NCBI GenBank assembly: GCA_951812955.1 | Contig: OX638340.1 | Location: 1-64,000, forward strand | DNA length: 64,000 bases | Reading direction: 5' to 3' | Source: an uncultured Gemmatimonadota bacterium | Lineage (GTDB): Bacteria; JAAXHH01 | Shown: positions 1,277 to 45,866 of the stretch, piece after piece | How positions within the stretch are numbered: the first letter of the stretch is position 1 | How the letters are laid out: each line of letters starts with the position of its first letter | Translations under genes and position numbers: made by a program | Notes under the pieces: generated by a model | The model's database searches: none | Told to the model about the DNA's origin: nothing | What the model saw: only the letters and a program-made list of their open reading frames with translations

Positions 1277-1312
1277 GACGGTGATATGCTTGGACAGTCC
1301 TCAGATAGTCCG

Positions 1313-1420
1313 GTCCACCCAGGTGGTCGGGTCCTCCCAGGTGGTCGGGTCCTCCCAGGTGGTCGGGTCCACCCAGGTGGTCGGGTCCACCCAGGTGGTC
1401 GGGTCCTCCCAGGTGATTGG
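1313..1420. repeat. Tandem repeat, 18 bp x 6 (gtccWcccaggtggtcgg)
   Basis: Units at 1313-1330, 1331-1348, 1349-1366, 1367-1384, 1385-1402 and 1403-1420. Only the a/t at unit position 5 and the last unit (gtgattgg) differ. The array is intergenic and ends at the start of the next ORF. Confidence 0.97.
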
Positions 1421-1716: not shown

Positions 1717-1720
1717 TTTC

Positions 1721-1765
1721 TGTCCAACCAGGTTCTGGCCAATCAGGTTCCGGCCAACCAGATTC
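1721..1765. repeat. Tandem repeat, 15 bp x 3 (yggccaaycagrttc)
   Basis: tgtccaaccaggttc / tggccaatcaggttc / cggccaaccagattc, directly after the stop at 1716. Confidence 0.85.
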
Positions 1766-1835: not shown

Positions 1836-3638
1836 ATGTCCCTTCCATCGGATATTGAAGTCATTCTGGCCACGGACTGCGGCAGCACGACGACCAAGGC
1901 CATCCTGATCGAAAAACGGTCCGGCGCCTACCGTCTCCTTGTTCGCGGCGAGGCGCCGACGACCGTGGAGGCGCCCTTCGAGGATGTCACGCGGGGCGTG
2001 CTCAACGCGGTGCGCGAGGTGGAGGAGCAATCCGGCCGCGCGATCCTCGACGGGGACCGGATCGTCTCGCCGGGGGCCGGGGGCCGGGGGGTTGACCTCT
2101 ACGTCTCGACGAGCAGCGCCGGCGGCGGGCTTCAGATGATGGTGGCCGGGGTGGTCAAGAGCATGACCGCCGAGAGCGCCGAACGGGCGGCCCTCGGCGC
2201 GGGCGCCATCGTCATGGAAACACTGGCGTCCAACGACGGGCGCCTGCCCCACGAACGCATCGAACGCATCCGGCAACTTCGACCGGACATGATCCTGCTT
2301 TCGGGCGGCGTGGACGGCGGTACAAAGTCCCACGTGGTCGAGATGGCAGAACTAATCTCCGCCGCCGACCCGAGACCCCGTCTGGGAAGCGGATACGATC
2401 TGCCGGTCATATTTGCCGGAAATACAGAGGCCGGCGAGGACGTCAGGCGGATCCTGGACGACAGGACGGAACTCAGCCAGGTGGAGAACCTGCGGCCCGT
2501 GCTCGAGGCGGAGAACCTGGGCCCCGCGCGGGAACGGATCCATACACTGTTCATGGAACACGTGATGGCCCAGGCGCCCGGTTACCGGGCCCTGATGGCG
2601 TGGACCCACGTGCCCATCATGCCCACCCCCGGCGCCGTGGGCAGGATGGTGCGGGTCGTCGCCGACCGCGACGGTATCGACGTGGCGGGCGTGGACATCG
2701 GCGGCGCGACCACCGATGTGTTCTCGGTCTTCGGCGGCGCCTTCAACCGGACCGTGAGTGCCAATCTCGGCATGAGTTACAGCATTTCCAACGTGTTGAC
2801 GGAAGCGGGACTGGAGGCCATTGCGCGGTGGCTGCCGTTCGATATGACCGACGCCGATCTGAAGGACCGCCTCGGCAACAAGATGATCCGTCCCACCAGC
2901 ATCCCCCAGACCATGGAGGAACTGATCATCGAGCAGGCCGTGGCCCGCGAAGCCCTGAGGTTGGCCTTCGAGCAGCACAGGAACTTTGCCGTGACGTTGA
3001 AGGGCGTGCAACAGCTTCGAACGATATCGGACACCTTTGACCAGCAGACGGGCGGACAGACCCTGGTCGACCTGATGAACCTGGACCTGATCATCGGCAG
3101 CGGCGGCGTGCTTTCCCATGCGCCGAACCGGTCACAGGCCGCGTTGATGCTGGTGGACGCCTTTCAGCCGGTAGGCATCACGAACCTGGCGGTGGACAGC
3201 ATATTCATGATGCCCCACCTGGGGGTGCTTTCCACCGTGCATGAGACCGCGGCGCTGGAGGTTTTCGACCGAGACTGCCTCGTATATCTCGGACCCTGCG
3301 TCGCCCCGGCCGGAAGGGGTAACGCGGGTTCGCACAGCGTGACGGTGAAGGCCAGGGCCGATGGCGTGGAAACCGTGTGCGAGGCCGTCGTGGGAGAACT
3401 GGCCGCGATCCCGACAGGGGAAGCGGAGGAAGTCGTACTGGAGGTCATTCCATCCCGCGGTTTTGACGTCGGCGCCGGCAGAGGCACGCCGGTCACCCGT
3501 ACCGTCCGCAATGGCCCGCTGGGCGTGATTATCGATACGCGCGGCAGACCGCTTCAACTGCCGGCCGACGCGGCCGAAAGGGTGGAGGTCCTGAAGCGAA
3601 GTTACCGCGCACTCGAAGTCTATCCGGAGTCCAGTTGA
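1836..3638 (+). CDS. GlmL/MutL-like (glutamate mutase L family) ASKHA-fold ATPase, long 600-aa form
   Basis: The N-terminal phosphate-1 motif 'ILATDCGSTTTKAILIEK' is characteristic of the GlmL/MutL family. A second 'GVDIGGATTDVFS' motif marks the second ASKHA lobe, and 'LIIGSGGVLSHAP' is also present. The stop TGA 3636-3638 overlaps the next ATG. Confidence 0.7.
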   Translation: MSLPSDIEVILATDCGSTTTKAILIEKRSGAYRLLVRGEAPTTVEAPFEDVTRGVLNAVREVEEQSGRAILDGDRIVSPGAGGRGVDLYVSTSSAGGGLQMMVAGVVKSMTAESAERAALGAGAIVMETLASNDGRLPHERIERIRQLRPDMILLSGGVDGGTKSHVVEMAELISAADPRPRLGSGYDLPVIFAGNTEAGEDVRRILDDRTELSQVENLRPVLEAENLGPARERIHTLFMEHVMAQAPGYRALMAWTHVPIMPTPGAVGRMVRVVADRDGIDVAGVDIGGATTDVFSVFGGAFNRTVSANLGMSYSISNVLTEAGLEAIARWLPFDMTDADLKDRLGNKMIRPTSIPQTMEELIIEQAVAREALRLAFEQHRNFAVTLKGVQQLRTISDTFDQQTGGQTLVDLMNLDLIIGSGGVLSHAPNRSQAALMLVDAFQPVGITNLAVDSIFMMPHLGVLSTVHETAALEVFDRDCLVYLGPCVAPAGRGNAGSHSVTVKARADGVETVCEAVVGELAAIPTGEAEEVVLEVIPSRGFDVGAGRGTPVTRTVRNGPLGVIIDTRGRPLQLPADAAERVEVLKRSYRALEVYPESS

Positions 3639-4762
3639 TGGCCCACGCCTATACATCGGGCCTGCGCGTATCGCCCCGGACCGTTGTCGCCCGGACACGG
3701 CGCCTTCCACTGAGTGGACAGGTGGTGGTGCAGGTGGATGACCGGGTACGGCCCGATACGGTGGTCGCAGAGACGTATCTGCCCGGACCGGTGCACAACG
3801 TCAACGTCGCCAATGCCCTGGCCATTGCGCCCGAGGACGTACCAGGCTGTATGCTGAAGCAACGGAACGATTCGGTGGAAAAAGGGGAGTTGATCGCCGA
3901 ATCAAAGGGGATTTTCGGGCTGTTCAAGTCCGCTGTCCGGTGCCCAGAGCGCGGAACAGTCGAAATGGTGTCGGATGTGACCGGCCAGGTGCTTATTCGG
4001 GAACCGTCGACCCCGGTACGGATCAACGCCTATCTCGATGGCAGGATAACCGAACTCCTTCCTGGAGAGGGTGTCATGGTGGAAACAGTCGGAGCCTTCA
4101 TCCAGGGCATCTTCGGCATAGGGGGCGAAGTGCACGCGCCGATAAATCAGATCGTCCAGTCGCCCGATGAGGAGGTCACCGAGGAGATGGTCGATGCGCG
4201 GTGCGCGGGACAGATCGTCTGCGGCGGATCCATGATCACCCTTGACGCGCTGCGTAAGTTGATAAGGGTCGGCGCGTCGGGTGTGGTGGTAGGGGGCATG
4301 CAGTACCACGACATCGGCGACCTCCTGGGTTACCAGATCGGCGTCGCGGTGACCGGCGGGGAAGACATCGGCCTGACCGTGGTGGTCACCGAAGGCTTCG
4401 GGCGGCTGCCCATGGCCGAGCGCACGTTCGACCTGATCGGGTCCATGGAGGGCCGGGAAGCCTCTATGAGCGGCGCCACGCAGATCCGGGCCGGTGTGAT
4501 TCGCCCCGAAATCATCATTAAGACCGACGGCTTCGAAGAACCGCAGGCACGATCGGATCCGGCGGCCCGCGGCCTGGTATCCGGGTCCCTGGTGCGCCTG
4601 ATCCGCAAGCCATGGTTTGGAGAAATCGCCACGGTGGCGTCGTTGCCGGAACAACCCGTCAGGCTTCCGACAGGCGCCCTGGCCCGGGTGCTGGAAGTTC
4701 GCAGGACGAACGGAGAGATCGTGACCGTGCCCCGAGCCAACGTGGAGATCGTGGAGTCCTGA
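3638..4762 (+). CDS. Hypothetical soluble protein (374 aa), translationally coupled on both sides
   Basis: ATG 3638 overlaps the upstream TGA (TGATG). Its own TGA 4760-4762 overlaps the next ATG. The N-terminal 'GQVVVQVDDRVRPDTVVAE' and 'GELIAESKG' resemble barrel-sandwich hybrid strands, and the C-terminal 'GSLVRLIRKPWFGEIATV' is KOW-like. Both resemblances are weak and by eye. Confidence 0.7.
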   Translation: MAHAYTSGLRVSPRTVVARTRRLPLSGQVVVQVDDRVRPDTVVAETYLPGPVHNVNVANALAIAPEDVPGCMLKQRNDSVEKGELIAESKGIFGLFKSAVRCPERGTVEMVSDVTGQVLIREPSTPVRINAYLDGRITELLPGEGVMVETVGAFIQGIFGIGGEVHAPINQIVQSPDEEVTEEMVDARCAGQIVCGGSMITLDALRKLIRVGASGVVVGGMQYHDIGDLLGYQIGVAVTGGEDIGLTVVVTEGFGRLPMAERTFDLIGSMEGREASMSGATQIRAGVIRPEIIIKTDGFEEPQARSDPAARGLVSGSLVRLIRKPWFGEIATVASLPEQPVRLPTGALARVLEVRRTNGEIVTVPRANVEIVES

Positions 4763-5700
4763 TGCGTCTATCCCCGTCACGCCGCAAGCCACACCCTGAT
4801 TCCTTCGCGATCGCGCTGCTGCGTGCTGTCCTCGCGTGTACGGTGTTCGTCGCCATGGCGCAGACGGATCTCCTTTTCGCACAGACTGACACCGAATCCG
4901 GCTGGTTCAACGCGGACCGGACCCAGGCCCTGGTACTCGGGATCGTCCTGACGGGCGCCATTCTGCTTTACGTTGTGCTGGCCGCCTCGGGCCGGCCCCT
5001 TTTCATTCGTAAAATCGCCGGCCTGGAAACGGTCGAGGAAGCCGTGGGCAGGGCGACGGAGATGGGCAAGCCCATCCTCTACGTCCCCGGCCTGAACGAC
5101 ATGGACGAGGTGCAGACCATCGCGTCCATGAACCTGCTGGGTCATCTCGCCACCATCATCGCGGGATACGACTCCAGGCTGCACGTACCCGTACGCAAGT
5201 CCCTCGTCATGAGCGTGGCGCGCGAGACCGTGCAGCAGTCCTACCTGTCCGCGGGGCGCCCCGACGCTTACCAGGAGGACGACATTCACTACGTGTCGGA
5301 CGCCCAATTCGCCTACGCGGCGGCCGTCGATGGCATCATCGTACGTGAACGGCCGGCCGCATGCTTCTACCTGGGCGGATTCTACGCCGAATCCCTTATC
5401 CTGGCGGAAACGGGCAACTCCATCGGGGCCATACAGATCGCGGGAACGGCCAGGCCTCCTCAACTGCCATTCTTCGTGGCGGCATGCGACTATACGCTGA
5501 TCGGCGAGGAACTTTTCGCCGCCAGCGCGTACCTGTCCAAGGAGCCGCGCATGCTCGGCAGCCTGAAGGGCCAGGACGCCGGCAAGGGCATCGCCATCGT
5601 GTTCATCCTGGCCGGCAGCGCGCTGGCCACACTGGAGTCCGTCACCGGAAACGAGACCGTCCGCGAAGTGTCGCAAATCGTCCTCTGGCTTTTCAGGTAG
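4762..5700 (+). CDS. Membrane protein of unknown function (312 aa): N-terminal signal/anchor, one TM, ~200-aa soluble domain, C-terminal TM(s)
   Basis: Trimmed from ORF 4612..5700 to ATG 4762, which overlaps the upstream stop. Hydrophobic segments are 'FAIALLRAVLACTVFVAMA', 'ALVLGIVLTGAILLYVVLAA' and 'GIAIVFILAGSALATL'. The central segment is 'FIRKIAGLETVEEAVGRATEMGKPILYVPG'. Confidence 0.75.
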   Translation: MRLSPSRRKPHPDSFAIALLRAVLACTVFVAMAQTDLLFAQTDTESGWFNADRTQALVLGIVLTGAILLYVVLAASGRPLFIRKIAGLETVEEAVGRATEMGKPILYVPGLNDMDEVQTIASMNLLGHLATIIAGYDSRLHVPVRKSLVMSVARETVQQSYLSAGRPDAYQEDDIHYVSDAQFAYAAAVDGIIVRERPAACFYLGGFYAESLILAETGNSIGAIQIAGTARPPQLPFFVAACDYTLIGEELFAASAYLSKEPRMLGSLKGQDAGKGIAIVFILAGSALATLESVTGNETVREVSQIVLWLFR

Positions 5701-5705
5701 ATCCC

Positions 5706-6386
5706 ATGCGTCGTAAAATACCGCTCATCATCACATTCATCATCGGCGTTGTCCTGGTCACAGGGTATTTCGTGACAAGGGGACCGTTCAACACGCTGTA
5801 TGAGAGTTTCTCCGATTATTTCGCCATCATTACGGTCTTCGCCTTCATCCTCGGCGGCGGCAGTCTGCTAAAGATTCATTTGAAACGCGTTTCCAACCGA
5901 TCCACGGACTGGCCCTACAGTGTGGTAACCCTGGCGGGGTTCCTCGTCACCCTGGTGATCGGACTGTTCAAGGTGGGCAATCCGGATGGGATGGGCGGGG
6001 AGATCCTGGCTGCCGGTTCCTGGCTGCGCTTCCTGTTCGACGGGGTCTACAATCCGCTGTCGGCGACCATGTTCTCCCTGCTGGCCTTCTTTGTCGCCTC
6101 GGCGTCCTACCGGGCCTTCAGAGCGCGTACGAAGGAGGCCACCATCCTCCTTTCCGCCGCCATGGTCATCCTGCTGGGCAGAACCCCCGTGGGCGCCTGG
6201 CTGACGGCCTGGATGCCGGAAATCCTGGGATTTCTCGAACTGCCGAACCTGGCCAACTGGATCATGGCCTGGCCGAACACGGCCGGCCAGCGTGCGATAA
6301 TGATCGGCATCGCCCTGGGGGTCATCGCGACCTCACTGCGCATCATCCTGGGGATCGAGCGCAACTACCTGGGCAGGAGGGAGTGA
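5706..6386 (+). CDS. Polytopic membrane protein of unknown function (226 aa, ~6 TM)
   Basis: Trimmed from ORF 5361..6386 to ATG 5706, 5 nt after the upstream TAG. It contains repeated hydrophobic helices, for example 'IPLIITFIIGVVLVTGYFV', 'YFAIITVFAFILGGGSLL' and 'YSVVTLAGFLVTLVIGLF'. Confidence 0.75.
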   Translation: MRRKIPLIITFIIGVVLVTGYFVTRGPFNTLYESFSDYFAIITVFAFILGGGSLLKIHLKRVSNRSTDWPYSVVTLAGFLVTLVIGLFKVGNPDGMGGEILAAGSWLRFLFDGVYNPLSATMFSLLAFFVASASYRAFRARTKEATILLSAAMVILLGRTPVGAWLTAWMPEILGFLELPNLANWIMAWPNTAGQRAIMIGIALGVIATSLRIILGIERNYLGRRE

Positions 6387-6388
6387 GC

Positions 6389-7288
6389 ATGCGGATTCCC
6401 GATTCCATCCTGCATATCGACCGGCGGATCATCTTCCTGCTCATCGGGGCGGCCGTCTGCATACCCCTGATCCTGCAGCCCCGCTTCCAGGACAGTCCCA
6501 CGCCTATCGTCCAGTCGATTTTCGACACGGTGGAGCGGCTGCCGTCCGGGTCGCGCGTATTCCTTTCCTTCGATTACGGTCCGGACACGGCGCCCGAACT
6601 GGATCCCATGGCCAAGGCCCTCGTGCGGCACACGATGACCCGGGGCCACGAGGTGTCCTTCTTCACCCTGTTCCCCGAAGGGCTGGGACAGATCAAGAAG
6701 ATCACGGACAACCTGCTGCCTGTGGAGTTCCCGGAGAAAGCCTATGGCAGGGATTTCGTGAACCTGGGTTACAAGGCCGGCCTGGGTGGCGCGATTAATA
6801 CGATGGTCGTCAACTTCCGAACGCTGATCAATGCCGACGCGGAGGGCACGCCGCTCGACGATCTGCCCATGACCGCGGATGTCGACGAGATGGTGGACTA
6901 TGCCATTATCCTCAGCCTGACCGCGGGCGACCCGGGACTGAAGGAGTGGATTCAGTTCGCGGGCGATATCGCGGGGATTCCCGTCATGGGCGGGGGCACC
7001 GCCGTGGTGGCGCCGGAACTGTATCCCTACTATCCTCAGCAACTGGTCGGCCTGATGGGCGGCCTCAAGGGCGCTTCCGAGTACGAGTCCGCCCTTGTGG
7101 ACCGGTATCCGGCCTACCGTAACGCCACCATGGACGCCACCATGCGCATGGGGCCCCAGGTCGTCACCCACGTGCTGATCGTCCTGCTGATCCTGCTGGG
7201 CAATCTGGCTTACTTCTTCGGCCGATCTGGCCGACCGGGCCGGAATGACCGGACGGACCGGGCGGACCAGGCGGACCGCAGGCGTTAA
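6389..7288 (+). CDS. Bitopic membrane protein of unknown function (299 aa) with an Arg/Asp-rich repeat tail
   Basis: AGGAGG at 6374-6379 lies 9 nt before ATG 6389 (GTG 6383 is an alternative). It has an N-terminal TM 'IIFLLIGAAVCIPLIL', a ~230-aa soluble domain and a C-terminal TM 'VVTHVLIVLLILLGNLAYFF'. The tail 'GRSGRPGRNDRTDRADQADRRR' is encoded by 9-bp repeats. Confidence 0.7.
   Translation: MRIPDSILHIDRRIIFLLIGAAVCIPLILQPRFQDSPTPIVQSIFDTVERLPSGSRVFLSFDYGPDTAPELDPMAKALVRHTMTRGHEVSFFTLFPEGLGQIKKITDNLLPVEFPEKAYGRDFVNLGYKAGLGGAINTMVVNFRTLINADAEGTPLDDLPMTADVDEMVDYAIILSLTAGDPGLKEWIQFAGDIAGIPVMGGGTAVVAPELYPYYPQQLVGLMGGLKGASEYESALVDRYPAYRNATMDATMRMGPQVVTHVLIVLLILLGNLAYFFGRSGRPGRNDRTDRADQADRRR
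7220..7282. repeat. Tandem repeat, 9 bp x 7 (GRCCNNNNN family), in frame at the 3' end of the CDS
   Basis: ggccgatct ggccgaccg ggccggaat gaccggacg gaccgggcg gaccaggcg gaccgcagg, followed by the stop TAA 7286-7288. Confidence 0.85.
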
Positions 7289-7299
7289 AGGAACGGCGT

Positions 7300-7974
7300 A
7301 TGGATGTTACACTGCAGCTTTGGATCGACGCGGCCCTGACGCTGATGATCCTCAGCTTCCTGTACCGTGACAATCCTTTCTACAAATTCGCCGAACATCT
7401 CTTTGTCGGCGTGTCCGCCGCGTACCTCATGGCAATCGGATTCTGGGACCACCTGGTCCCGAACCTGCTGGGCAAACTGTTCCCCTCGCTCATGTCGGGG
7501 GTCGTGCCCGGCGCCGTCGGCCGGTCGCCGGATTACTACTACATCATCCCCGCCGTCTTCGGCCTGCTGCTTCTTACCCGCCTGGTCGACCGCTGGGCCT
7601 GGCTCAGCCGGTGGGCGCTGGCGTTCATCGTCGGCGGCTCGGCGGGATTCAACCTGCCCCGCTTCCTGGATTCGGACTTCATCATTCAGGTCCAAAGCAC
7701 CATGGTTCCGCTCGTGGTGCTCGACCCGGCTGGCAATCTGCTCTGGGGCGCGAGTTTTTCCCACATTGTACTCGTTCTGGGCGTGATCTGCGGACTGGTG
7801 TACTTCTTCTTCTCCGTAGAACACAAGGGGATACTGGGACACGTGTCTCGTGCTGGGATCTGGGTGTTGATGGTGACCTTCGGCGCCGCCTTCGGATACA
7901 CGGTCATGGCGCGCATCTCCCTCCTCACCGGCAGGATGGAAGCCCTGGGCGCCTGGCTCGCCACCATGTTCTGA
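7300..7974 (+). CDS. Polytopic membrane protein of unknown function (224 aa, ~6 TM); last gene of the operon
   Basis: An AAGGA RBS precedes ATG 7300. The protein is almost entirely hydrophobic helices, for example 'LWIDAALTLMILSFLY', 'LFVGVSAAYLMAIGFW', 'IVLVLGVICGLVYFFF' and 'IWVLMVTFGAAFGY'. Confidence 0.75.
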   Translation: MDVTLQLWIDAALTLMILSFLYRDNPFYKFAEHLFVGVSAAYLMAIGFWDHLVPNLLGKLFPSLMSGVVPGAVGRSPDYYYIIPAVFGLLLLTRLVDRWAWLSRWALAFIVGGSAGFNLPRFLDSDFIIQVQSTMVPLVVLDPAGNLLWGASFSHIVLVLGVICGLVYFFFSVEHKGILGHVSRAGIWVLMVTFGAAFGYTVMARISLLTGRMEALGAWLATMF

Positions 7975-7988
7975 TTGGAGACCGTCGC

Positions 7989-8045
7989 GCGGCCCGGTCC
8001 GATGTCCGGGCGACCCGGTCCGATGTCCGGGCGACCCGGTACCGG
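7989..8045. repeat. Tandem repeat, 21 bp x ~2.7, each unit able to form a GCCCGG/CCGGGC hairpin; possible operon terminator
   Basis: gcggcccggtccgatgtccgg (7989-8009), gcgacccggtccgatgtccgg (8010-8030) and gcgacccggtaccgg (8031-8045). It lies 15 nt after the stop at 7974. Confidence 0.85.
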
Positions 8046-8156
8046 CACCCATGATTTCTGTTGCGCATTGCCATGGCCCGCTGTTATTTACTGAACCGTT
8101 CATTTCGGTCCCGGCCCGTGACGTCGGGACAGGGCGTACACGCGTAATGGAGTCCC

Positions 8157-9134
8157 ATGCAAGCCATCATCCCCGTTGCGGGCAGCGGAAGCCGGTTGCG
8201 CCCGATCACGCCAGGAACCCCCAAGGCCCTGGTTCCCGTCGCGGGGAAGCCGGTGCTCGAGTACATCCTCGAACAGATTGCCGGCCTGGGCATCCGCGAG
8301 GTCATACTGGTCATCTCCCCCTCGGGGGACGCCATCCGCGGCTTTGTCGATCAACGTGATGAGCTCGAGGCCCGGTACGTCGTACAACGCGAGCCGCTCG
8401 GGATCGGTCACGCCGTGTATCAGTGCCGCGGCCTGCTGAATGACGGCCCCGTCCTGGTCGTACTGGGCGATATAATCTACCTGTCGGACTATTCCTTCCT
8501 GGGCAAAGAACCGCCGGGCCACGCTATCGGCGTAAAGCGCGTATCAGGCGATCTTACCGGGTACGGGCTGGTAGAAGTCTTGGACGGGCGGATCACCCGG
8601 CTGGTGGAGAAACCCGATCATCCCATCTCCAATACGGCGATCGCCGGGATCTACTATTTTTCCAGGTCCGGTCCGCTCATGGATGGACTGGAGAACCTTG
8701 TCAAGTCAGATCGAAGGACCCGAAACGAGTATCAGCTAACGGACGCGCTGCAGTGGATGGTGGAAAAGGGCGAGCATCTGTCTCCCTTCGACGTCGACCA
8801 CTTGTACGACTGCGGCACGCCGGACCGTCTGCTGGAGGCCAACCGGCGGCTTCTGGACCTGAACGGGGGGAACTGCAGCATACCGGGCAGCGTCATCATA
8901 CCGCCCGTCGACATCGCCTCCGGCGCCCGGGTGCACCGATCCGTCGTCGGTCCCCACGTCGCCATCTCGTCCCGGGCCTCCGTCGTGCGCACCGTCGTAC
9001 GCGACGCCACCATCGGAACCTGCGCCCGGATCGAAAACTGTGATCTCAGGCGTTCCGTCGTTACGCCGCACGCCGTGTTGGCCGACACCGTAGAACGTGC
9101 ATCGACCGGCGCGCGTTGCGCGGTTTATGTCTGA
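8157..9134 (+). CDS. Sugar-phosphate nucleotidyltransferase (NTP_transferase N-domain plus left-handed beta-helix C-domain)
   Basis: The N-terminal signature 'IIPVAGSGSRLRPITPGTPKALVPVAGKPVLEYIL' is typical of glucose-1-P thymidylyl/uridylyl/mannose-1-P guanylyltransferases. The C-terminal half has hexapeptide-like repeats. Sugar specificity cannot be determined. Confidence 0.8.
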   Translation: MQAIIPVAGSGSRLRPITPGTPKALVPVAGKPVLEYILEQIAGLGIREVILVISPSGDAIRGFVDQRDELEARYVVQREPLGIGHAVYQCRGLLNDGPVLVVLGDIIYLSDYSFLGKEPPGHAIGVKRVSGDLTGYGLVEVLDGRITRLVEKPDHPISNTAIAGIYYFSRSGPLMDGLENLVKSDRRTRNEYQLTDALQWMVEKGEHLSPFDVDHLYDCGTPDRLLEANRRLLDLNGGNCSIPGSVIIPPVDIASGARVHRSVVGPHVAISSRASVVRTVVRDATIGTCARIENCDLRRSVVTPHAVLADTVERASTGARCAVYV

Positions 9135-18695: not shown

Positions 18696-18813
18696 ATACC
18701 ATGCTCGGTCCGGCGTCAGGCCACGCCACGGTTTTTCGGACCCTGCGTAACCGGATGTATCGACACGGGCGTAAATCCCGTGTTTCAAGGAACGTCGACC
18801 GATGCGGAACAGG

Positions 18814-18936
18814 ATCAATCGGACCAATCGGGCCAATCGGACCAGTCCGGCCAGGCGGACCGAGTGGGCAAATCTGGCCAAGCTGGCCAAGCTGACTAGG
18901 CGGACCAGGCGGACCGAGCTGACCAGGCGGACCAGA
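18814..18936. repeat. Degenerate tandem repeat, 9 bp x ~14 (GRCCRRNNN family), immediately 5' of the methyltransferase gene
   Basis: ..gaccaatcg ggccaatcg gaccagtcc ggccaggcg gaccgagtg ggcaaatct ggccaagct ggccaagct gactaggcg gaccaggcg gaccgagct gaccaggcg gaccagaga, followed by ATG 18940. It is stop-free and in frame with an upstream ATG at 18802. Confidence 0.9.
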
Positions 18937-18939
18937 GAC

Positions 18940-19479
18940 ATGGAGACCAACTTCGAGGTACGCAGTTTCGATGCGGAGATCACAAAGGAAGCGTACGACA
19001 GGCTGCCCAAGCTGCCGCTGTATTTCGTACTGGACAACCTGCGCAGCGCATTCAACGTGGGTTCCATATTCCGGACCTGCGACATCCTGCGGGTTAAAAG
19101 CCTCTTTCTGTGCGGTTACACGGCCTGTCCGCCCCACGCGAAGCTGGAGAAGACGGCCCTGGGCACCATAGATTACGTCCCCTGGCGTAATTTCGAGTCG
19201 GCCGTCGACGCGGTCGACTACCTGCGAGACAGAAGCGTCGCGGTGTGGGCCGCCGAAACGGCTTCGGGTTCGGTTCCGTATGACGAGGCGGTATTTCCGG
19301 ACGAATTGGCGATCGTCCTGGGTAACGAGGCGCTGGGCGTGAGCCGCGACGTGCTGGAACGGTGTGACGGCCTGGTCGAAATCCCCACGCGGGGCTACAA
19401 GAATTCGCTCAACGTGGCGTCCGCCTGCGCGGTCCTGGGATTCAAGGCGCTGGAGCAAATGGAAGGGAAATCGAACTGA
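18940..19479 (+). CDS. SpoU/TrmH-family RNA 2'-O-methyltransferase
   Basis: 'LDNLRSAFNVGSIFRTCD', 'AIVLGNEALGVS' and 'VEIPTRGYKNSLNVASACAV' are SPOUT motifs 1-3. The start is either ATG 18940 (179 aa) or ATG 18802, which would add a 46-aa Arg/Thr-rich repeat-encoded extension. Confidence 0.8.
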   Translation: METNFEVRSFDAEITKEAYDRLPKLPLYFVLDNLRSAFNVGSIFRTCDILRVKSLFLCGYTACPPHAKLEKTALGTIDYVPWRNFESAVDAVDYLRDRSVAVWAAETASGSVPYDEAVFPDELAIVLGNEALGVSRDVLERCDGLVEIPTRGYKNSLNVASACAVLGFKALEQMEGKSN

Positions 19480-19505: not shown

Positions 19506-20285
19506 CTACGGGTCGCTCGACCAGGTCTTCCTGCCCACGAAGAACGGTCCCAGCGAATCGATGTACAGGGCGGTCTGCTGGGTCTTACGCATGTCCTGGA
19601 CGACCCGTGAGAGCGGGTAAAGTTCCTTGCCGAGCAGTCCGATGACGAAGTCGTTGTCCGCCTCGTCCAGCCCGTAGCAAGCCAGGCGGATGTCGTGGGC
19701 GAAGTCGGCCCGGCCGTAGGCTCGGCCGATGTGGGCGTGCTCCATCAGGATCTGGCGCTGCTCCTTGTGTTCAAGGCGGGCGAAGGCGCCGTTCCGTCTC
19801 AGGGGATACCAGATAGCCCAGGGCCAGTCGGGATTGAGCACGGTGTTGCGCGGCCGGTGTATGAGCGATTCCTTCAGGTCCGGTTCGTATCCCATGGAGT
19901 AGGTCCTGCCGAACATCGTCATGTTTCCGCGTAGTTCCATCGCATCGAACGGACTGACAGTCAACAGGTTCCGGACGTCCGTTACGAAGGCATCCGGATC
20001 TTCGGCCAGGAACAGCACGCCGATACCCGTGGGATCGTTGACATCGAGATACACCGCGGAATCCAGACCGGATTTCCGCAGCGCGACGATGCATTCGCCG
20101 GTTATGTCCGGGGCCCGCCGGACGGATTCCCGGCTGGACACGGTGAACACATTGAGCTGCATGTACAGCCGTGTTTCGGCCGTCTGGGCCTGGCCGTTTA
20201 CTGGCGCTCCGCGTTCGAGTATATCTGGGGTCCTGCCGGTGTCTTCGTTCACGTCGCTTCCCTGCCTTCTCTTTGACGATTCCAT
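19506..20285 (-). CDS. Chlorite-dismutase-family protein, most likely coproheme decarboxylase (HemQ/ChdC)
   Basis: 'WAIWYPLRRNGAFARLEHKEQRQILMEHAHIGRAYG...CYGLDEADNDFVIGLL...VVQDMRKTQQTALY..LGPFFVG' follows the HemQ/Cld pattern. It is divergent from hemH. The start is uncertain (ATG 20285 chosen; the ORF extends to 20411). Confidence 0.65.
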   Translation of the reverse strand: MESSKRRQGSDVNEDTGRTPDILERGAPVNGQAQTAETRLYMQLNVFTVSSRESVRRAPDITGECIVALRKSGLDSAVYLDVNDPTGIGVLFLAEDPDAFVTDVRNLLTVSPFDAMELRGNMTMFGRTYSMGYEPDLKESLIHRPRNTVLNPDWPWAIWYPLRRNGAFARLEHKEQRQILMEHAHIGRAYGRADFAHDIRLACYGLDEADNDFVIGLLGKELYPLSRVVQDMRKTQQTALYIDSLGPFFVGRKTWSSDP

Positions 20286-20380: not shown

Positions 20381-21430
20381 TTGAACTACGACGCATTGCT
20401 CCTGGTATCATTCGGGGGCCCGGAAGGCGCCGCCGACGTCCTCCCCTTTCTCGAGCGCGTGCTCAAAGGCCGGCGCGTTCCCAGGGAACGAATGATGGAG
20501 GTCGCGGAACACTACCACCATTTCGGTGGGGTCAGCCCGATAAACAGCCAGAACCGGGCACTGATCTCCGCCCTTGAAAGCGCGTTGGCGAACCGCGACC
20601 TTCCCCTCCCGATCTACTGGGGAAACCGGAACTGGCATCCCTTGCTGGCGGATACGGTCCGGCGGATGGCCGCGGACGGGATCCAACGGGCGCTGGCCCT
20701 CGTTACGTCCGCCTACAGCTCCTATTCGAACTGCAGGCAGTACCTCGAGAACATCGAGGATGCCCGGCGCGAGGTGGGCGGCGGCGCCCCGAAAATCGAC
20801 AAGATCAGGCCCTTTTTCCATCATCCGGGTTATATCGAAACGATGGAGGCACGCGTTCGTTCCGCCCTGGACCGCTTGCCGGAAGCGCGCCGCGCCTCGG
20901 CGCACCTGGTGTATACCGCCCACAGCATACCCCTGGCCATGGCTCGGGGATGCGCGTACGAAGCGCAACTCCGGGAAGCCTCCCGGCTCATCAGCGCGCG
21001 CGCGGGCGCTTCCTCCTGGACGCTGGCATTTCAAAGCCGCAGCGGTCCGCCCGCTCAGCCCTGGCTGGAACCCGATGTCTGTGATTACATCCGGTCGTTC
21101 CACGAGACTGGCGCGGGCCGGGCGGACCGAGCGGACCGAGCGGGCCGGGCGGACCGGGCGGACCGGGATATCGTGTTGATCCCCGTAGGATTCATCTCGG
21201 ACCACATGGAAGTGGCCTACGACCTGGACATTGAAGCGCGGGCGTGTTGCGATGAGCTCGGGGTACGCATGGTCCGGGCGGAAACGGCGGGGACTCATCC
21301 CCGCTTCGTGGAAATGATCGTGGAACTCGTCGAAGAACGCCTGTCCCTGACGACGGCCAGGGCGGCCGTGGGTGTCCTGGAACCGTGGCCCGATCGATGC
21401 CCGCCGGACTGCTGCCCTTCCGGCAGGTAG
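20381..21430 (+). CDS. hemH: Ferrochelatase (probably coproporphyrin ferrochelatase) with a repeat-encoded loop insertion and a Cys-rich C-terminus
   Basis: TTG start 20381 lies behind GGGAGGAAG. Motifs are 'LLLVSFGGPEG', 'SPINSQ', 'YTAHSIP' and 'PVGFISDHMEVAYDLD'. The C-terminus is 'DRCPPDCCPSGR'. Confidence 0.85.
   Translation: MNYDALLLVSFGGPEGAADVLPFLERVLKGRRVPRERMMEVAEHYHHFGGVSPINSQNRALISALESALANRDLPLPIYWGNRNWHPLLADTVRRMAADGIQRALALVTSAYSSYSNCRQYLENIEDARREVGGGAPKIDKIRPFFHHPGYIETMEARVRSALDRLPEARRASAHLVYTAHSIPLAMARGCAYEAQLREASRLISARAGASSWTLAFQSRSGPPAQPWLEPDVCDYIRSFHETGAGRADRADRAGRADRADRDIVLIPVGFISDHMEVAYDLDIEARACCDELGVRMVRAETAGTHPRFVEMIVELVEERLSLTTARAAVGVLEPWPDRCPPDCCPSGR
21117..21170. repeat. 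Tandem repeat, 9 bp x 6 (GRCCGRGCG), in frame inside hemH
   Basis: ggccgggcg gaccgagcg gaccgagcg ggccgggcg gaccgggcg gaccgggat. It is translated as 'GRADRADRAGRADRADRD' just before the conserved PVGF motif. Confidence 0.9.
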
Positions 21431-21455: not shown

Positions 21456-22490
21456 TCAGACCGGGACCTCCCACCGGTCCATGGGTTCGGTGGAACGTAC
21501 CCGGCGCATGCCCGCGTCGGCGAACCGGCCGAAGGCCTTCTCCGCCTCCCCAGTAAAATCGATCACACCGGGAACGACGACCGGTGAGGTGCAGTCCTCC
21601 AGCAGGCAGACTTTCGCGGTCATGGACGGCTTGCGCGCCTCGAACTCCGTCCGGAGATCTTCCACCGTCCACGCCACGCAATGACTCTTGGCCTGCCCGG
21701 CCACGATGACGGCGTCGAAGGTCATCAAGTGATCGACCAGCGGCGAATTCCTGTCACCCACCGGATGGCCGCCGGCGTCTTCCATTACGTCGGGGCGCAA
21801 CACGGAGTAGTTCTCTGTGAGGGCATGATTCCCTTTGAGTTCGAAGCGGGCCTGACGGACTCGCGCGATGCTGTGAAAGAAAACCGCCTCCTCGACCGCG
21901 GACACCAGGGCGTGGCCGATGCCCCCGAGCATGGCGTGGTACGGCCAGATCATGAGCGGATACTTGCCATCGCGCGCGAGGCGCCGGACGTAATGCAGCG
22001 CGTAGGCGGAAAGATCGATCCGGCCGCCGAACCAGGCCTCCACCGTGGGATTCACACGCCAGGTTCCCTGTTCTACGTCGTCCGGGGTGATGACCGTTTC
22101 GCCGCCTATGGGATGTCCGCCCCCTTCGTCGACCCAGAACATCGGGTGGAAGATCTGCTGGGCCGTGTGGGTGTCCATCGTGGGGATAATCTCCGTAATG
22201 GAATGGAGGTTGCGGTAGATGAAGGTGCATAGGCGGTCGTTGTCCTCCACGGCGCCACGTCCGCTCCGTCCACCGACGAAAAGCTCGAATCCGGGAAGAC
22301 AGAAAGTGTTCTGGCAGTCCACCAGGAGCAGGGCGGTTCGAAAGGCATCCTCGACCGAGGGCCGGATCCCGCGTTCTTCCGCCCAATCTCGGGCATCCGC
22401 GGCCCGTTCTCCGTATGGGACGCGCCAGACCGTCTCGACGGACCCCGACGTGTAGTGGGGCGGAACGTCTCCGAGTGGTTTAAAGTTCAT
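21456..22490 (-). CDS. Isochorismatase-family hydrolase, nicotinamidase-like (long 344-aa form)
   Basis: '[10 protein letters not shown]' holds the catalytic Asp region and '[17 protein letters not shown]' the nucleophile Cys. Its start overlaps the nadE stop by 11 bp, so the two are co-transcribed. Confidence 0.65.
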
Positions 22491-24549
22491 CGGGGATGCG
22501 ATCTAAATCCGACAGCCAGACCGCCGGAGAAGCATCGGACGGCATCCGCCAGTCGCCACGGGGGGATATACAGGTCATGCCGACCTTGGGCCCTTCCGGC
22601 AGGCAGTTCCGTTTGAACTGGTTCTGGAAGAACCGGACGATAAAGACGCGCAGCCAGGTCTTGATCTCCCGGAGTTCGTACTTTCCCTCGAATGCATGCA
22701 TTGCCATCCGGGCGATACGCGAGGGCGAGAAGCCGAATCGCATGAAGTAGTAGATGAAGAAGTCGTGCAGTTCGTAGGGACCGATTTTCTCTTCGGTTTT
22801 CTGGGCGATCTCCCGCTCGCGCGGTGGCAGCAATTCCGGTGAAATAGGCGTGTCGAGAATGTCCAGCAGCACGTCCCTCACTGCCGACTCCTGTTCGAAG
22901 ACCTCGTCGGCGGTCCAGCGGATCAGGTAGGAAATGAGGGTCTTGGGAATCCCTGCATTGACGCCGTAATGGCTGGCATGGTCGCCGAACATGGTGCACC
23001 ATCCCAGCGCCAGTTCCGAAAGGTCGCCGGTACCGAGTACGATACCCTTGACCTGGGCGGCCGTGGCGAGTTCCTCCAGTTTCCGGGTCCATGCCTGGGT
23101 GTTTTCGTAGACGAGGTCTTTCTTGTCTTCCGAATGCCCGATATCCCCGAAGAACTGCCGCACCGCGGGTTTGATGTCGATCTCCCGGAAAGTGGCGCCG
23201 ACCGCCCGGATCAGCGTACATGCGTTCGAGTAGGTTCGCTCCGTAGTGCCCAGTCCCGGCATGGTCAGGGCCACGATGCGGGACCGCGGCAGGCCGAGCA
23301 GGTCCATGGTGTGTACTGCGACATTCAGGGCGTGGGTCGAATCCTGGCCCCCTGACACCGCCACGACGACCCTCCGGGCATCCTCGGGCAGCGATCTCAG
23401 CTTGGTCGCGAGTCCGGTGGACTGGATCATGAACACTTCGCGGCACCGCTGGCTGCGATCCGCGAGATTTTGCGGTACGAAGGGATGAGAGGGTATATCG
23501 CGCTCGAAGGTCCGATGCGCTACTCCGGGCGCCTTCCCGGCATTCTTCGAACCCTCTTCTCCAGCGTGGCCGGCATCTTTCGAACCCTCTTCTCCATCGT
23601 GGCCGAACCGGAATCCCGGAAGGTAAGCGGACCGCCAGGATGACTTGTAGTCCATGGCGTTCTGACGGAAAGAGCCCTGGACGCCCCGCTCCAGCGTCAG
23701 CGCCTCCACGTCGACGTCCGCGACGATGCAGGCTCCATCAAGCTGGAAGCGTTCGGTTTTCGCCAGCATGTAGCCTCGTTCGGCGATGAACCCGTGGCCG
23801 TCCCAAACCACGTCCATGGTCGACTCCCCGAATCCCGCCGCGGCGTACATGTGGACGGCCTCGTTGCGGCCCGATGAAGCCAGGACGAGGTCCTCCCGGT
23901 ACTGCGCCTTGCCGATGACGATGTTGGAGGCCGACAGGTTCGCCAGAATGCTCGCGCCCGCCAGCGCCGCCCTGCTGCTCGGGGGCACCGGAACCCAGTC
24001 GTCTTCGCAGATCGTCGGATATATCACGACCCTGGGATCATCCGTACGCAACAGCACGTCGGGTCCGAATGGCGCTTCCCGGCCACAAAGAGATACAGAG
24101 TCGGTCTGCGCTTCCGCGGCCCGGGCAAAATACCGCGTCTCATAAAACTCGCGATATTGCGGGAGATAGGTCTTGGGCGCAACGGACAGGATGTCTCCGC
24201 GGCTGCAGGTTACCGCGACGTTGAAGACCGCGTGATCGATCCGCAGGGGCATGCCGAAACTGAAAGCCAGGCCGGTTTCCCTGGTCTGGTCCAGCAGTTC
24301 CTCAAGCGCCTTCAGCGCACCGTCCAGCAGCGCCTGGGAATGGAAGAGGTCGGCGCAGGTATAACCGGTCAGACTCAATTCCGGGAAAAGGACATAGGAA
24401 GCTCCCTTCCCGCCTGCCGCTTCGATCTGCTCCAGGTGATGCGCCACGTTCGCCGCGGGGTCGCCCACGCGAATACGGGGTACGGCGATGGCCAGGCGCA
24501 CGAAGCCGTGGCTGCGCACATCGAGAAACTGTTCGGGGCTGAGTTCCAT
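22480..24549 (-). CDS. nadE: Glutamine-dependent NAD+ synthetase (CN-hydrolase plus NAD synthase domains, 689 aa)
   Basis: The N-terminal nitrilase-like domain has '[16 protein letters not shown]' and 'ICEDDW'. The C-terminal ATP-PPase has '[13 protein letters not shown]'. The linker between them carries an 11-aa duplication. Confidence 0.9.
23538..23603. repeat. Tandem duplication, 33 bp x 2 (30/33 identical), in frame in the nadE interdomain linker
   Basis: cggcattcttcgaaccctcttctccagcgtggc / cggcatctttcgaaccctcttctccatcgtggc. On the minus strand it encodes '[22 protein letters not shown]'. Confidence 0.9.
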
Positions 24550-24727
24550 GGCCTCTGTATCCCGGACGATAACTAATGGACCGTTGCGAACCGGTGACCG
24601 TTACGATCCTATATCTTTGCAATCGGCTTATACTGGTCGCCGGCTGCCGGGCGTCACGAAAAAGATAAGGGATATGCGATCGGGCAGGCAAGACGCAATT
24701 TCCGGCGCGCCAAAGGGTTTCGGACGG

Positions 24728-45769: not shown

Positions 45770-45866
45770 GATACCCGCGGTCAACCCGCGCTTCGATCCG
45801 TTCCGTTTCCGCGGGGGCTGGCGCGTCGCCCGATGACGGCCTCCACAGGCCAGGGCGGGTTCGACC

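What the first reader, a model, noticed from the sequence alone, without database searches (positions are those of the whole stretch)
7220..7282. 9-bp repeat array forms the C-terminal tail of an operon membrane protein; same family recurs at 18814 and 21117
Seven 9-bp units (ggccgatct ... gaccaggcg gaccgcagg) encode the tail 'GRSGRPGRNDRTDRADQADRRR' after the last TM helix. Units such as gaccaggcg and gaccgagcK recur in the arrays at 18814-18936 and 21117-21170, so this is one dispersed repeat family with by-eye consensus G-R-C-C-N5. Every instance keeps the host frame open because the unit is a multiple of 3. The family therefore behaves like a genome-wide source of in-frame Arg/Asp/Ala/Thr-rich low-complexity insertions.
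Basis: seen in the sequence. Interest (0 to 1): 0.5.

Follow-up and report, generated by a model that had tools for sequence, protein, structure and literature searches.

The report
In-frame 9-bp repeat arrays, grown in place
Three genes of a Gemmatimonadota bacterium carry fast-changing runs of a similar 9-base unit that add floppy charged peptide to a protein tail, a protein start and an enzyme loop; this is ordinary replication-slippage variation, not a spreading genetic element.

Summary
Three 9-bp arrays lie at 7220-7282, 18811-18936 and 21113-21166. They share the unit GRCCRRKCK and are far more frequent than in shuffles or in 1.3 Mb of unrelated genomes.

They are coding-region variable-number tandem repeats that grew in place.
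- Relatives of about 80-86% nucleotide identity carry a single unit at the SpoU and ferrochelatase sites, and two proto-units at the tail site.
- Strains 95-97% identical to the window differ by whole units. The tail has 7 versus 9 units, the SpoU N-terminus has 8, 10, 15 or 16, and the ferrochelatase loop has 3, 5 or 6.
- Across the clade the ferrochelatase loop runs from 8 to 44 residues, mostly in 3-residue steps.
- Arrays resemble their orthologues in other genomes (6.5/9) more than other arrays in the same genome (5.7/9). That argues against copying between loci.
- All three sites tolerate insertions: a cytoplasmic tail, an N-terminus, and a low-confidence surface loop.

The reading "one dispersed family, a genome-wide source of insertions" is only partly supported. 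The units are related, but I found no sign of dispersal, and the genome-wide claim could not be tested. The same unit class occurs in many unrelated metagenomes and is read in all six frames. Why the unit is shared remains unexplained. Interest is low to moderate.

The parts
6383..7288 (+). ORF for a 301-aa membrane protein with no Pfam family. It is the fifth gene of a conserved cluster: MutL-like PF13941, an unknown gene, DUF6754, a 226-aa gene, this gene, and a 224-aa gene.
   Evidence: More than 1200 homologues were found, typically 282-292 aa.
7160..7219 (+). Coding sequence of the last hydrophobic helix, VVTHVLIVLLILLGNLAYFF.
   Evidence: Read directly from the translation. The helix is conserved in all homologues.
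7220..7282 (+). Array 1: seven 9-bp units in codon phase GRC-CRR-KCK, encoding GRS GRP GRN DRT DRA DQA DRR. It is followed by CGT TAA.
   Evidence: There are 9 units in L001 (95.5% nt identity) and 7 diverged units in L003. L007 and L008 have no array, only AGCCGCAGA AGCCGACAG AGG TAA.
18802..19479 (+). ORF of a SpoU/TrmH-family RNA methyltransferase as read from the upstream ATG. The Pfam domain starts at residue 73.
   Evidence: Gene callers used the equivalent upstream ATG in L089, L090 and L091.
18811..18936 (+). Array 2: fourteen 9-bp units in codon phase CKG-RCC-RRK. It lies between the conserved ATGCGGAAC (18802-18810) and GAC followed by the conserved ATG of METNF (18940).
   Evidence: There are 7 such units in L090, 9 in L089 and 15 in L091, which gives the 8/10/15/16 series when ATGCSGAAC is counted as a unit. 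L212, L213 and L009 carry one unit. The ATG frame is stop-free in all four alleles.
20381..21430 (+). ORF of a coproporphyrin-type ferrochelatase.
   Evidence: Pfam PF00762, E 3e-83. The best solved relative is 28wn_A, a coproporphyrin III ferrochelatase. A chlorite-dismutase-family gene lies next to it.
21113..21166 (+). Array 3: six 9-bp units (GCG GRC CGR), encoding AGR ADR ADR AGR ADR ADR. It is inserted between helix H233-250 and strand E263-267.
   Evidence: It aligns to a 16-residue gap in 28wn_A. The 10-residue blocks 241-250 and 251-260 have mean pLDDT 68 and 52, in a model with mean 88.9. L213 carries the single unit GCG GAC CGG.

Best explanation
These are three independent coding-region tandem-repeat arrays of variable copy number. 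Each arose in place by duplication of a local three-codon segment containing an Arg codon.

Each array then expanded, contracted and turned over through slipped-strand mispairing or unequal sister-strand exchange. Point changes, mostly transitions at unit positions 2, 5, 6 and 7, make variant units (D/G, R/Q, A/T/S), and single variants are then re-amplified.

Because the unit is 9 bp, every change is in frame. Arrays persist only where extra disordered hydrophilic peptide is tolerated. Here that means the cytoplasmic tail after the last membrane helix, the extreme N-terminus of the methyltransferase, and a surface loop of ferrochelatase. The added peptide is probably close to neutral.

Shown: tandem structure, whole-unit copy-number differences between close strains, single-unit states in relatives, locus-specific unit signatures, and the loop location.
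Inferred: slippage as the molecular process, near-neutrality, the cytoplasmic orientation of the tail, and translation of array 2.
For: 1. Allelic series between strains.
- The tail has 7 units in the window and 9 in L001 at 95.5% nt identity. The 9 include DQT three times.
- The SpoU N-terminus has 8, 10, 15 or 16 units in genomes 94.6-97.2% identical to the window.
- The ferrochelatase loop has 3, 5 or 6 units in the same genomes.
- Across 55 clade members of 71-95% protein identity, loop lengths run from 8 to 44 residues. Forty of the 55 fall in the series 8+3n.

2. Seeds in relatives without arrays.
- L213 ferrochelatase reads GGG GCG GAC CGG GAT, exactly one unit.
- L212, L213 and L009 SpoU read ATG CGG AAC CGG GCC GGG GAC ATG...CGT ACC GGG..., and ...CGC CCC GGA....
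- L007 and L008 tails read AGCCGCAGA AGCCGACAG AGG TAA.
- One 3.73-Mb contig carries the unexpanded state at all three loci (P0020, P0167 and L212).

3. Homogenisation within arrays. L089 is 97.2% identical to the window but uses GCT for Ala in three consecutive identical units, where the window uses GCG.

4. No exchange between loci. Unit identity is 6.47 of 9 for the same locus in different genomes, 5.68 for different loci in the same genome, and 5.53 for different loci in different genomes.

5. Tolerant positions.
- The insert aligns to a gap in the closest solved structure.
- It is the least confident internal part of the predicted structure.
- Unrelated planctomycete ferrochelatases carry their own different inserts in the same loop.
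- Published work finds repeats and indels enriched at protein termini in prokaryotes (PMC3315296).

6. Not driven by codon preference. The arrays use rare codons: CGA 0.06, TCT 0.01 and GCT 0.05 of their synonymous sets.
Against: - Independent in-place growth does not by itself explain why three arrays converged on the same unit, including an identical consensus GACCGGGCG at loci 1 and 3 and an exact 18-mer shared by loci 1 and 2.
- The seed heptamer GRCCGGG is common: 75 copies in the window against 58 expected. This makes shared seeds plausible, but it also leaves open why only these sites expanded.
- At least one 9-bp array in the clade has a different unit: the SSB gene of L007, CCGTCCGGG.
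- Slippage itself was not observed.
- Near-neutrality is assumed from position only.
Confidence: 0.75

Rival explanations
1. The shared unit reflects a sequence-specific tendency to expand. Units built around CGG-N-CCG or GG-N-CC interrupted palindromes, or GGG runs every 9 nt, would stabilise slipped hairpin or quadruplex intermediates. Seeds of this type would then expand far more often than other 9-mers. This refines the main explanation rather than replacing it.
For: - The same unit occurs at three loci in two codon phases.
- The predicted folds pair CGG with CCG across units. The + strand of locus 1 folds better than all 200 shuffles, z = -3.2.
Against: - Five of the six strand folds are no better than dinucleotide shuffles, with z from -1.9 to +0.5.
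- The metagenome scan was selected by the pattern itself, so it cannot show that this unit class is commoner than others.
- An SSB array in the clade uses a different unit.
- Most locus-2 units lack the full CGG-N-CCG core.
Confidence: 0.15
2. This is a truly dispersed DNA family. Array sequence would be copied from one locus to another by ectopic gene conversion, template switching or an insertion process.
For: - An exact 18-mer is shared by loci 1 and 2 in the window.
- Loci 1 and 3 have the same consensus unit.
- All three arrays are in one orientation and lie within 14 kb of each other.
Against: - Relatives without arrays keep one unit at the site rather than an empty site.
- The arrays share no flanks.
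- Each locus keeps its own signature across genomes. Position 5 is A in 12 of 14 units at locus 2 and G in 6 of 6 at locus 3.
- Different loci in the same genome are no more alike than different loci in different genomes, 5.68 against 5.53.
- The AGGCGGACC unit that forms the shared 18-mer is present once in the 97%-identical strain L089. Its repetition in the window therefore looks like a local duplication.
Confidence: 0.06
3. The peptides are selected for a function, for example charged flexible tails or linkers that tune membrane-protein topology, enzyme interactions or solubility. The common [DG][RQ][ATS] vocabulary would then be convergent at the protein level.
For: - Loci 1 and 3 use the same codon phase and the same tripeptide vocabulary (DRA, DQA, DQT, GRA) in several genomes.
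- The ancestral tail is Arg-rich, as expected for a cytoplasmic stop-transfer segment.
Against: - Locus 2 reads the unit in another phase and gives different peptides.
- Length ranges from 0 to 12 extra units among close relatives, with no preferred value.
- The net charge of the tail varies: +4, +2 and +7 by my count from the sequences.
- The arrays use rare codons.
- Many close relatives do without them.
Confidence: 0.08
4. The arrays are an artefact, or the wrong strand was read. They would be assembly errors, or parts of antisense collagen-like (G-X-Y)n genes.
For: - The reverse strand of arrays 1 and 2 reads GPPGPPGPSGHSGPVGQIG and GPPGQLGPPGPP...GPIGPIGPI within open frames.
- Forty of the 120 metagenome hits are most plausibly read as G-X-Y on the reverse strand.
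Against: - The arrays recur with different alleles in independent assemblies, including multi-megabase long contigs.
- The + strand frames belong to genes supported by Pfam and by homology, and they continue on both sides of the arrays.
- The antisense frames have no such support.
Confidence: 0.01

Closest known systems
Variable-number tandem repeats in bacterial coding regions, i.e. in-frame minisatellites evolving by slipped-strand mispairing (reviewed in PMC3899988; positional analysis in PMC3315296)
   Same: Head-to-tail units whose length is a multiple of three. Whole-unit copy-number differences between close strains. Conserved flanks. Homogenisation within arrays. Location at protein termini and other indel-tolerant positions.
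   Different: Here three housekeeping or operon genes within 14 kb carry arrays of nearly the same 9-bp unit in two codon phases. One array sits inside the fold of an essential enzyme, ferrochelatase, and ranges from 0 to 12 extra units across a clade of uncultured Gemmatimonadota.
Phase-variable contingency loci (simple sequence repeats that switch genes on and off)
   Same: The same presumed slippage process and the same hypervariability.
   Different: The 9-bp unit never shifts the frame, so the coding arrays cannot act as on/off switches. The host genes are not surface or virulence genes.
Bacterial collagen-like (G-X-Y)n repeat genes and their 9-bp-periodic DNA (from my own knowledge; supported here only by the frame analysis of metagenome hits)
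   Same: The same DNA unit class. GRCC at 9-bp spacing reads as GGY-C.. (Gly-X-Y) on the opposite strand. Forty of the 120 metagenome arrays matching the unit pattern are best read that way.
   Different: In this window the G-X-Y frames are antisense to well-supported genes. The translated frames give D/G-R/Q-A/T/S or R/L-T/A-X peptides, not collagen.
Mycobacterial polymorphic GC-rich repetitive sequences (PGRS, 9-bp CGGCGGCAA-type repeats in PE_PGRS genes; recalled from memory, not tested)
   Same: GC-rich 9-bp units repeated in frame. They are polymorphic between strains and give low-complexity peptide.
   Different: PGRS arrays are long, Gly/Ala-rich and confined to one gene family with a PE domain. 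The arrays here are short and Arg/Asp/Ala/Thr-rich, and they sit in unrelated conserved genes.
Interspersed bacterial repeats such as REP elements and MITEs
   Same: Similar short sequence at several places in one genome.
   Different: There are no shared termini, no inverted repeats and no empty sites. The 'empty' sites retain one unit, and the copies are tandem, not single.

Membership tests
Coding-region VNTR / in-frame minisatellite | Head-to-tail copies of one unit | tested here: met
   TRF period 9 at all three loci.
Coding-region VNTR / in-frame minisatellite | Copy number differs between closely related genomes by whole units while the flanks stay conserved | tested here: met
   The tail has 7 or 9 units. 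The SpoU N-terminus has 8, 10, 15 or 16. The ferrochelatase loop has 3, 5 or 6, all at 94.6-97.2% nt identity. Loop lengths follow 8+3n in 40 of 55 clade members.
Coding-region VNTR / in-frame minisatellite | Arises in place from local sequence, so that relatives without the array keep the unit in single copy | tested here: met
   L213 reads GCG GAC CGG GAT. L212 reads CGG GCC GGG. L007 reads AGCCGCAGA AGCCGACAG.
Coding-region VNTR / in-frame minisatellite | Change of copy number by replication slippage or unequal exchange, observed directly | not testable with these tools
   This needs long-read population data or a reporter assay. The organism is uncultured.
Dispersed or mobile repeat family (REP, MITE or insertion-type) | Copies share ends or flanks, and empty sites lack the element entirely | tested here: not met
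   The flanks of the three arrays are unrelated, read directly. Sites without arrays retain one unit.
Dispersed or mobile repeat family (REP, MITE or insertion-type) | Copies within a genome are more alike than orthologous copies, showing recent spread or conversion | tested here: not met
   Unit identity is 6.47 of 9 for the same locus across genomes, 5.68 for different loci in the same genome, and 5.53 for different loci in different genomes.
Dispersed or mobile repeat family (REP, MITE or insertion-type) | Many copies genome-wide | not testable with these tools
   Only 64 kb plus pieces of relatives of about 21 kb could be read. The window has three arrays in its first 21 kb and none in the remaining 43 kb.
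Phase-variable contingency locus | A change in copy number shifts the reading frame or alters promoter spacing | tested here: not met
   The unit is 9 bp and the arrays lie inside ORFs. Array 2 sits at the start of its gene, so an effect on translation initiation cannot be excluded.
Collagen-like (G-X-Y)n protein | Gly at every third residue in the frame of a real gene | tested here: not met
   The G-X-Y frames are antisense to genes supported by Pfam.

The most novel reading that the evidence does not exclude
GRCCRRKCK may be an intrinsically expansion-prone 9-mer class in GC-rich bacteria, for example because its CGG/CCG interrupted palindromes stabilise slipped intermediates. One DNA-level process would then repeatedly create in-frame arrays that are read in whichever of the six frames the host gene dictates. 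Outcomes would range from D-R-A-type tails and loops, as here, to Gly-X-Y collagen-like tracts on the opposite strand. In this Gemmatimonadota clade the process would be active enough to remodel even an essential enzyme between strains of one species.
Probability: 0.12. Interest if true: 0.55.

Novelty: new member of a known kind. Interest (0 to 1): 0.3.

Why it matters
The practical value is modest but real.
- These arrays are hypervariable strain markers for an uncultured symbiont clade.
- They are likely sources of assembly and gene-length inconsistencies in metagenome-assembled genomes.
- The ferrochelatase loop gives a natural series of 0 to 12 extra tripeptide units inside an essential enzyme. 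That is a clean example of how much low-complexity insertion a surface loop tolerates.

If the shared unit reflects a sequence-specific tendency to expand, it would link short charged tails, N-terminal extensions and collagen-like tracts to one mutational process. My evidence does not show that.

Tried and rejected
- Exact-protein look-ups for three window proteins found nothing. The window's own genome is not in that collection, or its genes were called differently. I used relatives instead.
- A protein search with a synthetic (DRA)n-type query, meant to list other host proteins, returned only 23 short weak hits. HMMER's composition correction makes it uninformative, and it spent the last protein search.
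- Single-strand DNA folding of the arrays was done to test hairpin-driven expansion. Only one of six strands beat the shuffles, so the result is inconclusive.
- Codon preference does not explain the shared unit. The arrays use rare codons.
- The antisense collagen-like ORF reading is rejected, because the sense genes have Pfam and homology support.
- Gene conversion between loci is rejected on the unit-identity comparison.
- Rfam scans of the whole window and of the conserved intergenic block 7960-8170 gave no hits.
- Literature searches for this repeat in Gemmatimonadota or sponge symbionts found nothing specific.
No whole-genome census was therefore possible.

Full report
**What is in the sequence**

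ORF 6383-7288 (301 aa) ends with a hydrophobic helix, VVTHVLIVLLILLGNLAYFF. Seven in-register 9-bp units follow at 7220-7282, then CGT TAA, and together they encode GRSGRPGRNDRTDRADQADRRR.

Two further arrays of the same type are present.
- Fourteen units at 18811-18936 lie between ATGCGGAAC (18802) and GAC-ATG (18940). They form the start of a SpoU-family methyltransferase ORF.
- Six units at 21113-21166 lie inside a ferrochelatase ORF.

In a common register the unit is GRCCRRKCK. Loci 1 and 3 read it as GRC-CRR-KCK, giving D/G, R/Q and A/S/T. Locus 2 reads it one phase off as CKG-RCC-RRK, giving R/L, T/A and N/S/K/R/E.

**Is it more than chance?**

- Runs of at least four GRCC at 9-bp spacing occur four times in the window, all on the + strand. 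Dinucleotide shuffles give 0.01 such runs each and never more than four GRCC in a run.
- In 1.3 Mb from 79 unrelated genomes there is one such locus. That background holds only five period-9 arrays of at least three copies, none with this unit.
- Mean unit identity between loci in the shared register is 5.3-6.4 of 9. Within a locus it is 5.7-7.3, and in other registers or on the other strand the median is 2.4-3.1.
- Loci 1 and 3 have the same TRF consensus, GACCGGGCG.
- Loci 1 and 2 share an exact 18-mer.
- A two-unit pattern occurs six times, only inside the arrays.

**Source organism and relatives**

The closest proteins come from Gemmatimonadota metagenome-assembled genomes. One is named "Gemmatimonadetes bacterium" in GCA_009838645.1. 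I recall these assemblies as sponge-associated, but I did not verify that.

Nucleotide identity of the fetched relatives to the window is:

| Locus | Identity to window |
|---|---|
| L089 | 97.2% |
| L001 (same 3.85-Mb contig as L091) | 95.5% |
| L091 (same 3.85-Mb contig as L001) | 94.6% |
| L090 | 94.7% |
| L213 | 85.9% |
| L003 | 83.6% |
| L009 | 82.2% |
| L212 | 80.3% |
| L007 | 79.7% |

**Locus 1, the tail**

- Homologues of about 88% identity and below are 282-292 aa and end in a short Arg-rich tail such as ...YFISRRSRQR.
- Only the window and two close relatives have the repeat tail, and all three differ. The tails are GRSGRPGRNDRTDRADQADRRR, GRSGRPGRSGRADQADQTDQTDQTDRRR and GRSGRAARAGRTGQGNRAVRRP.
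- The DNA alignment shows conserved flanks, including the stop codon, the ribosome-binding site and the start of the next gene. The extra units are inserted between them.
- In the relatives without an array, the site reads AGCCGCAGA AGCCGACAG AGG TAA. That is already a two-unit proto-repeat.

**Locus 2, the SpoU start**

- Four genomes 94.6-97.2% identical to the window carry 8, 10, 15 and 16 units. This count includes ATGCSGAAC. All lie between the same ATG context (AAGGAAC...ATG) and GAC-ATG-GAG.
- More distant relatives have a single unit:
  - L212: ATG CGG AAC CGG GCC GGG GAC ATG
  - L213: ...CGT ACC GGG...
  - L009...CGC CCC GGA...
- The ATG frame is free of stops in all four expanded alleles. 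One other + strand frame has stops in all four alleles, and the third has stops in two of them.
- This fits translation from the upstream ATG, but it is not proof.

**Locus 3, the ferrochelatase loop**

- Among 55 clade members of 71-95% protein identity, the stretch between the conserved DYIRSFH helix and the IVxIPVGF strand is 8 to 44 residues long.
- Forty of them fall on the series 8, 11, 14 ... 44. Examples are ADRD, ADRADRD, ADRADRADRD, and up to ...DQTDQSDQADQTDQSDQSDQAGQADRADRD.
- L213 carries exactly one unit, GCG GAC CGG, followed by GAT.
- L089 is 97% identical to the window overall, but it has five units, three of them identical and using GCT where the window uses GCG. That shows rapid turnover and homogenisation within the array.
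- The insert aligns to a 16-residue gap in the closest solved ferrochelatase, 28wn_A.
- In an AlphaFold model (mean pLDDT 88.9), the 10-residue blocks 241-250 and 251-260 have mean pLDDT 68 and 52. They lie between helix 233-250 and strand 263-267.
- Planctomycete ferrochelatases carry their own unrelated inserts at the same loop. The site is therefore generally permissive.

**Dispersed family or growth in place?**

- One 3.73-Mb contig has the unexpanded state at all three loci (P0020, P0167, L212).
- Other contigs have one array expanded but not another. The 3.92-Mb contig, for example, has no tail but a 346-aa ferrochelatase. The loci therefore vary independently.
- Unit identity is highest for the same locus across genomes (6.47 of 9). 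It is no higher between loci of one genome (5.68) than between loci of different genomes (5.53).
- The arrays share no flanks.
- The AGGCGGACC unit that makes up the shared 18-mer is present once in L089's locus 2 and repeated in the window. This points to a local duplication.
- The seed heptamer GRCCGGG is ordinary in this genome, with 75 copies against 58 expected.

All of this favours independent in-place expansion and argues against a sequence that spreads.

**Why the same unit?**

This is not resolved.
- Codon preference does not explain it, because the arrays use rare codons.
- Hairpin potential is not convincingly above shuffles. Only one strand of six gave a notable result, z = -3.2.
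In those contigs the longest open frame across the array is spread over all six frames. Forty are Gly-X-Y on the reverse strand, eighteen are [DG][RQ][AS] as at loci 1 and 3, and twenty-two are in the locus-2 phase.
- The unit class is therefore not specific to this lineage. Because the scan was selected by the pattern, it cannot show that the class is over-represented.

**Comparison with what is known**

The behaviour matches coding-region variable-number tandem repeats evolving by slipped-strand mispairing.
- Such repeats and their indels are known to concentrate at protein termini and other structurally tolerant positions (PMC3315296; review PMC3899988).
- The arrays fail the tests for a mobile or interspersed repeat, for a phase-variable switch and for a collagen-like gene.

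I rate this as a new member of a known kind. The interesting residue is the shared unit across three nearby genes and the wide allelic range inside an essential enzyme.

**Limits**

- No whole genome could be scanned, so the genome-wide claim is untested.
- Slippage, neutrality, tail topology and translation of array 2 are inferences.

Noticed in passing
window 1308-1415: An 18-bp unit (GTCGGGTCC[A/T]CCCAGGTG) repeated six times. It lies in the intergenic region between the PhyH-family gene (425-1276) and the first small ORF of the cluster (1417-1716). L001 (95.5% identical) has about two units, and L003 and L007 have essentially none. This is a non-coding variable tandem repeat just upstream of an operon.
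   Followed up: partly
window 1718-1765: A 15-bp unit (TTCTGGCCAACCAGG) repeated 3.2 times between ORF 1417-1716 and the MutL-like gene (1836). L001 also has about 3 copies, at 5331-5377. The unit contains CTGGCCAA, which also occurs in units of array 2.
   Followed up: no
window 7989-8040: A 21-bp unit (GCGACCCGGTCCGATGTCCGG) repeated 2.5 times just downstream of the 224-aa gene (7300-7974). L001 has one copy fewer and L003 has none. Its reverse strand contains GACCGGG.
   Followed up: partly
window about 8050-8156: An intergenic block upstream of the nucleotidyl-transferase gene (8157). It is almost invariant across relatives that are only about 80-84% identical overall, and it includes a GTCCCGG...CGGGAC inverted repeat. 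Rfam gave no match at E up to 1. It may be a conserved leader or regulatory RNA.
   Followed up: partly
window 47103-47189: A degenerate 12-bp array of 7.2 copies and 67% matches, inside a large ORF (45837-48398). It encodes GD(A/V)(E/D)-like tetrapeptide repeats.
   Followed up: no
window 23537-23605: A 33-bp unit repeated 2.1 times inside a long minus-strand ORF (22480-24600). It encodes a duplicated GHxGEEGSKxA segment.
   Followed up: no
L007 16860-16903; SSB genes of L001, L007, L008 and L212: The SSB gene of a relative carries a different 9-bp array, CCGTCCGGG repeated 4.9 times. SSB length varies among relatives: 145, 152, 158 and 161 aa. Not all 9-bp arrays in the clade are of the GRCC type.
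   Followed up: no
L003 19654-19710: A 6-bp unit (GACCCG) repeated 9.5 times at the 3' end of the TPR-protein gene of a relative.
   Followed up: no
L036 and proteins P0186, P0191, P0192, P0196: Ferrochelatases from Planctomycetota and other lineages carry their own unrelated inserts, some of them repetitive (for example DPSHPADPSHP), at the same helix-to-strand loop. The loop appears to be a general hot spot for insertions.
   Followed up: partly
window 1836-7974: A conserved six-gene cluster: a MutL-like PF13941 protein, an unknown 374-aa protein, DUF6754, and three small membrane proteins. None has an assigned function. Homologues of the 301-aa member are found in many phyla, with more than 1200 hits, including proteins named as Fermentibacteria and 'Candidatus Alcyoniella'.
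   Followed up: no
window 19506-20252 (-) and 20381-21430 (+): The ferrochelatase lies next to a divergently oriented chlorite-dismutase-family gene. Its best solved relative is a coproporphyrin III ferrochelatase. This suggests the coproporphyrin-dependent haem pathway.
   Followed up: no
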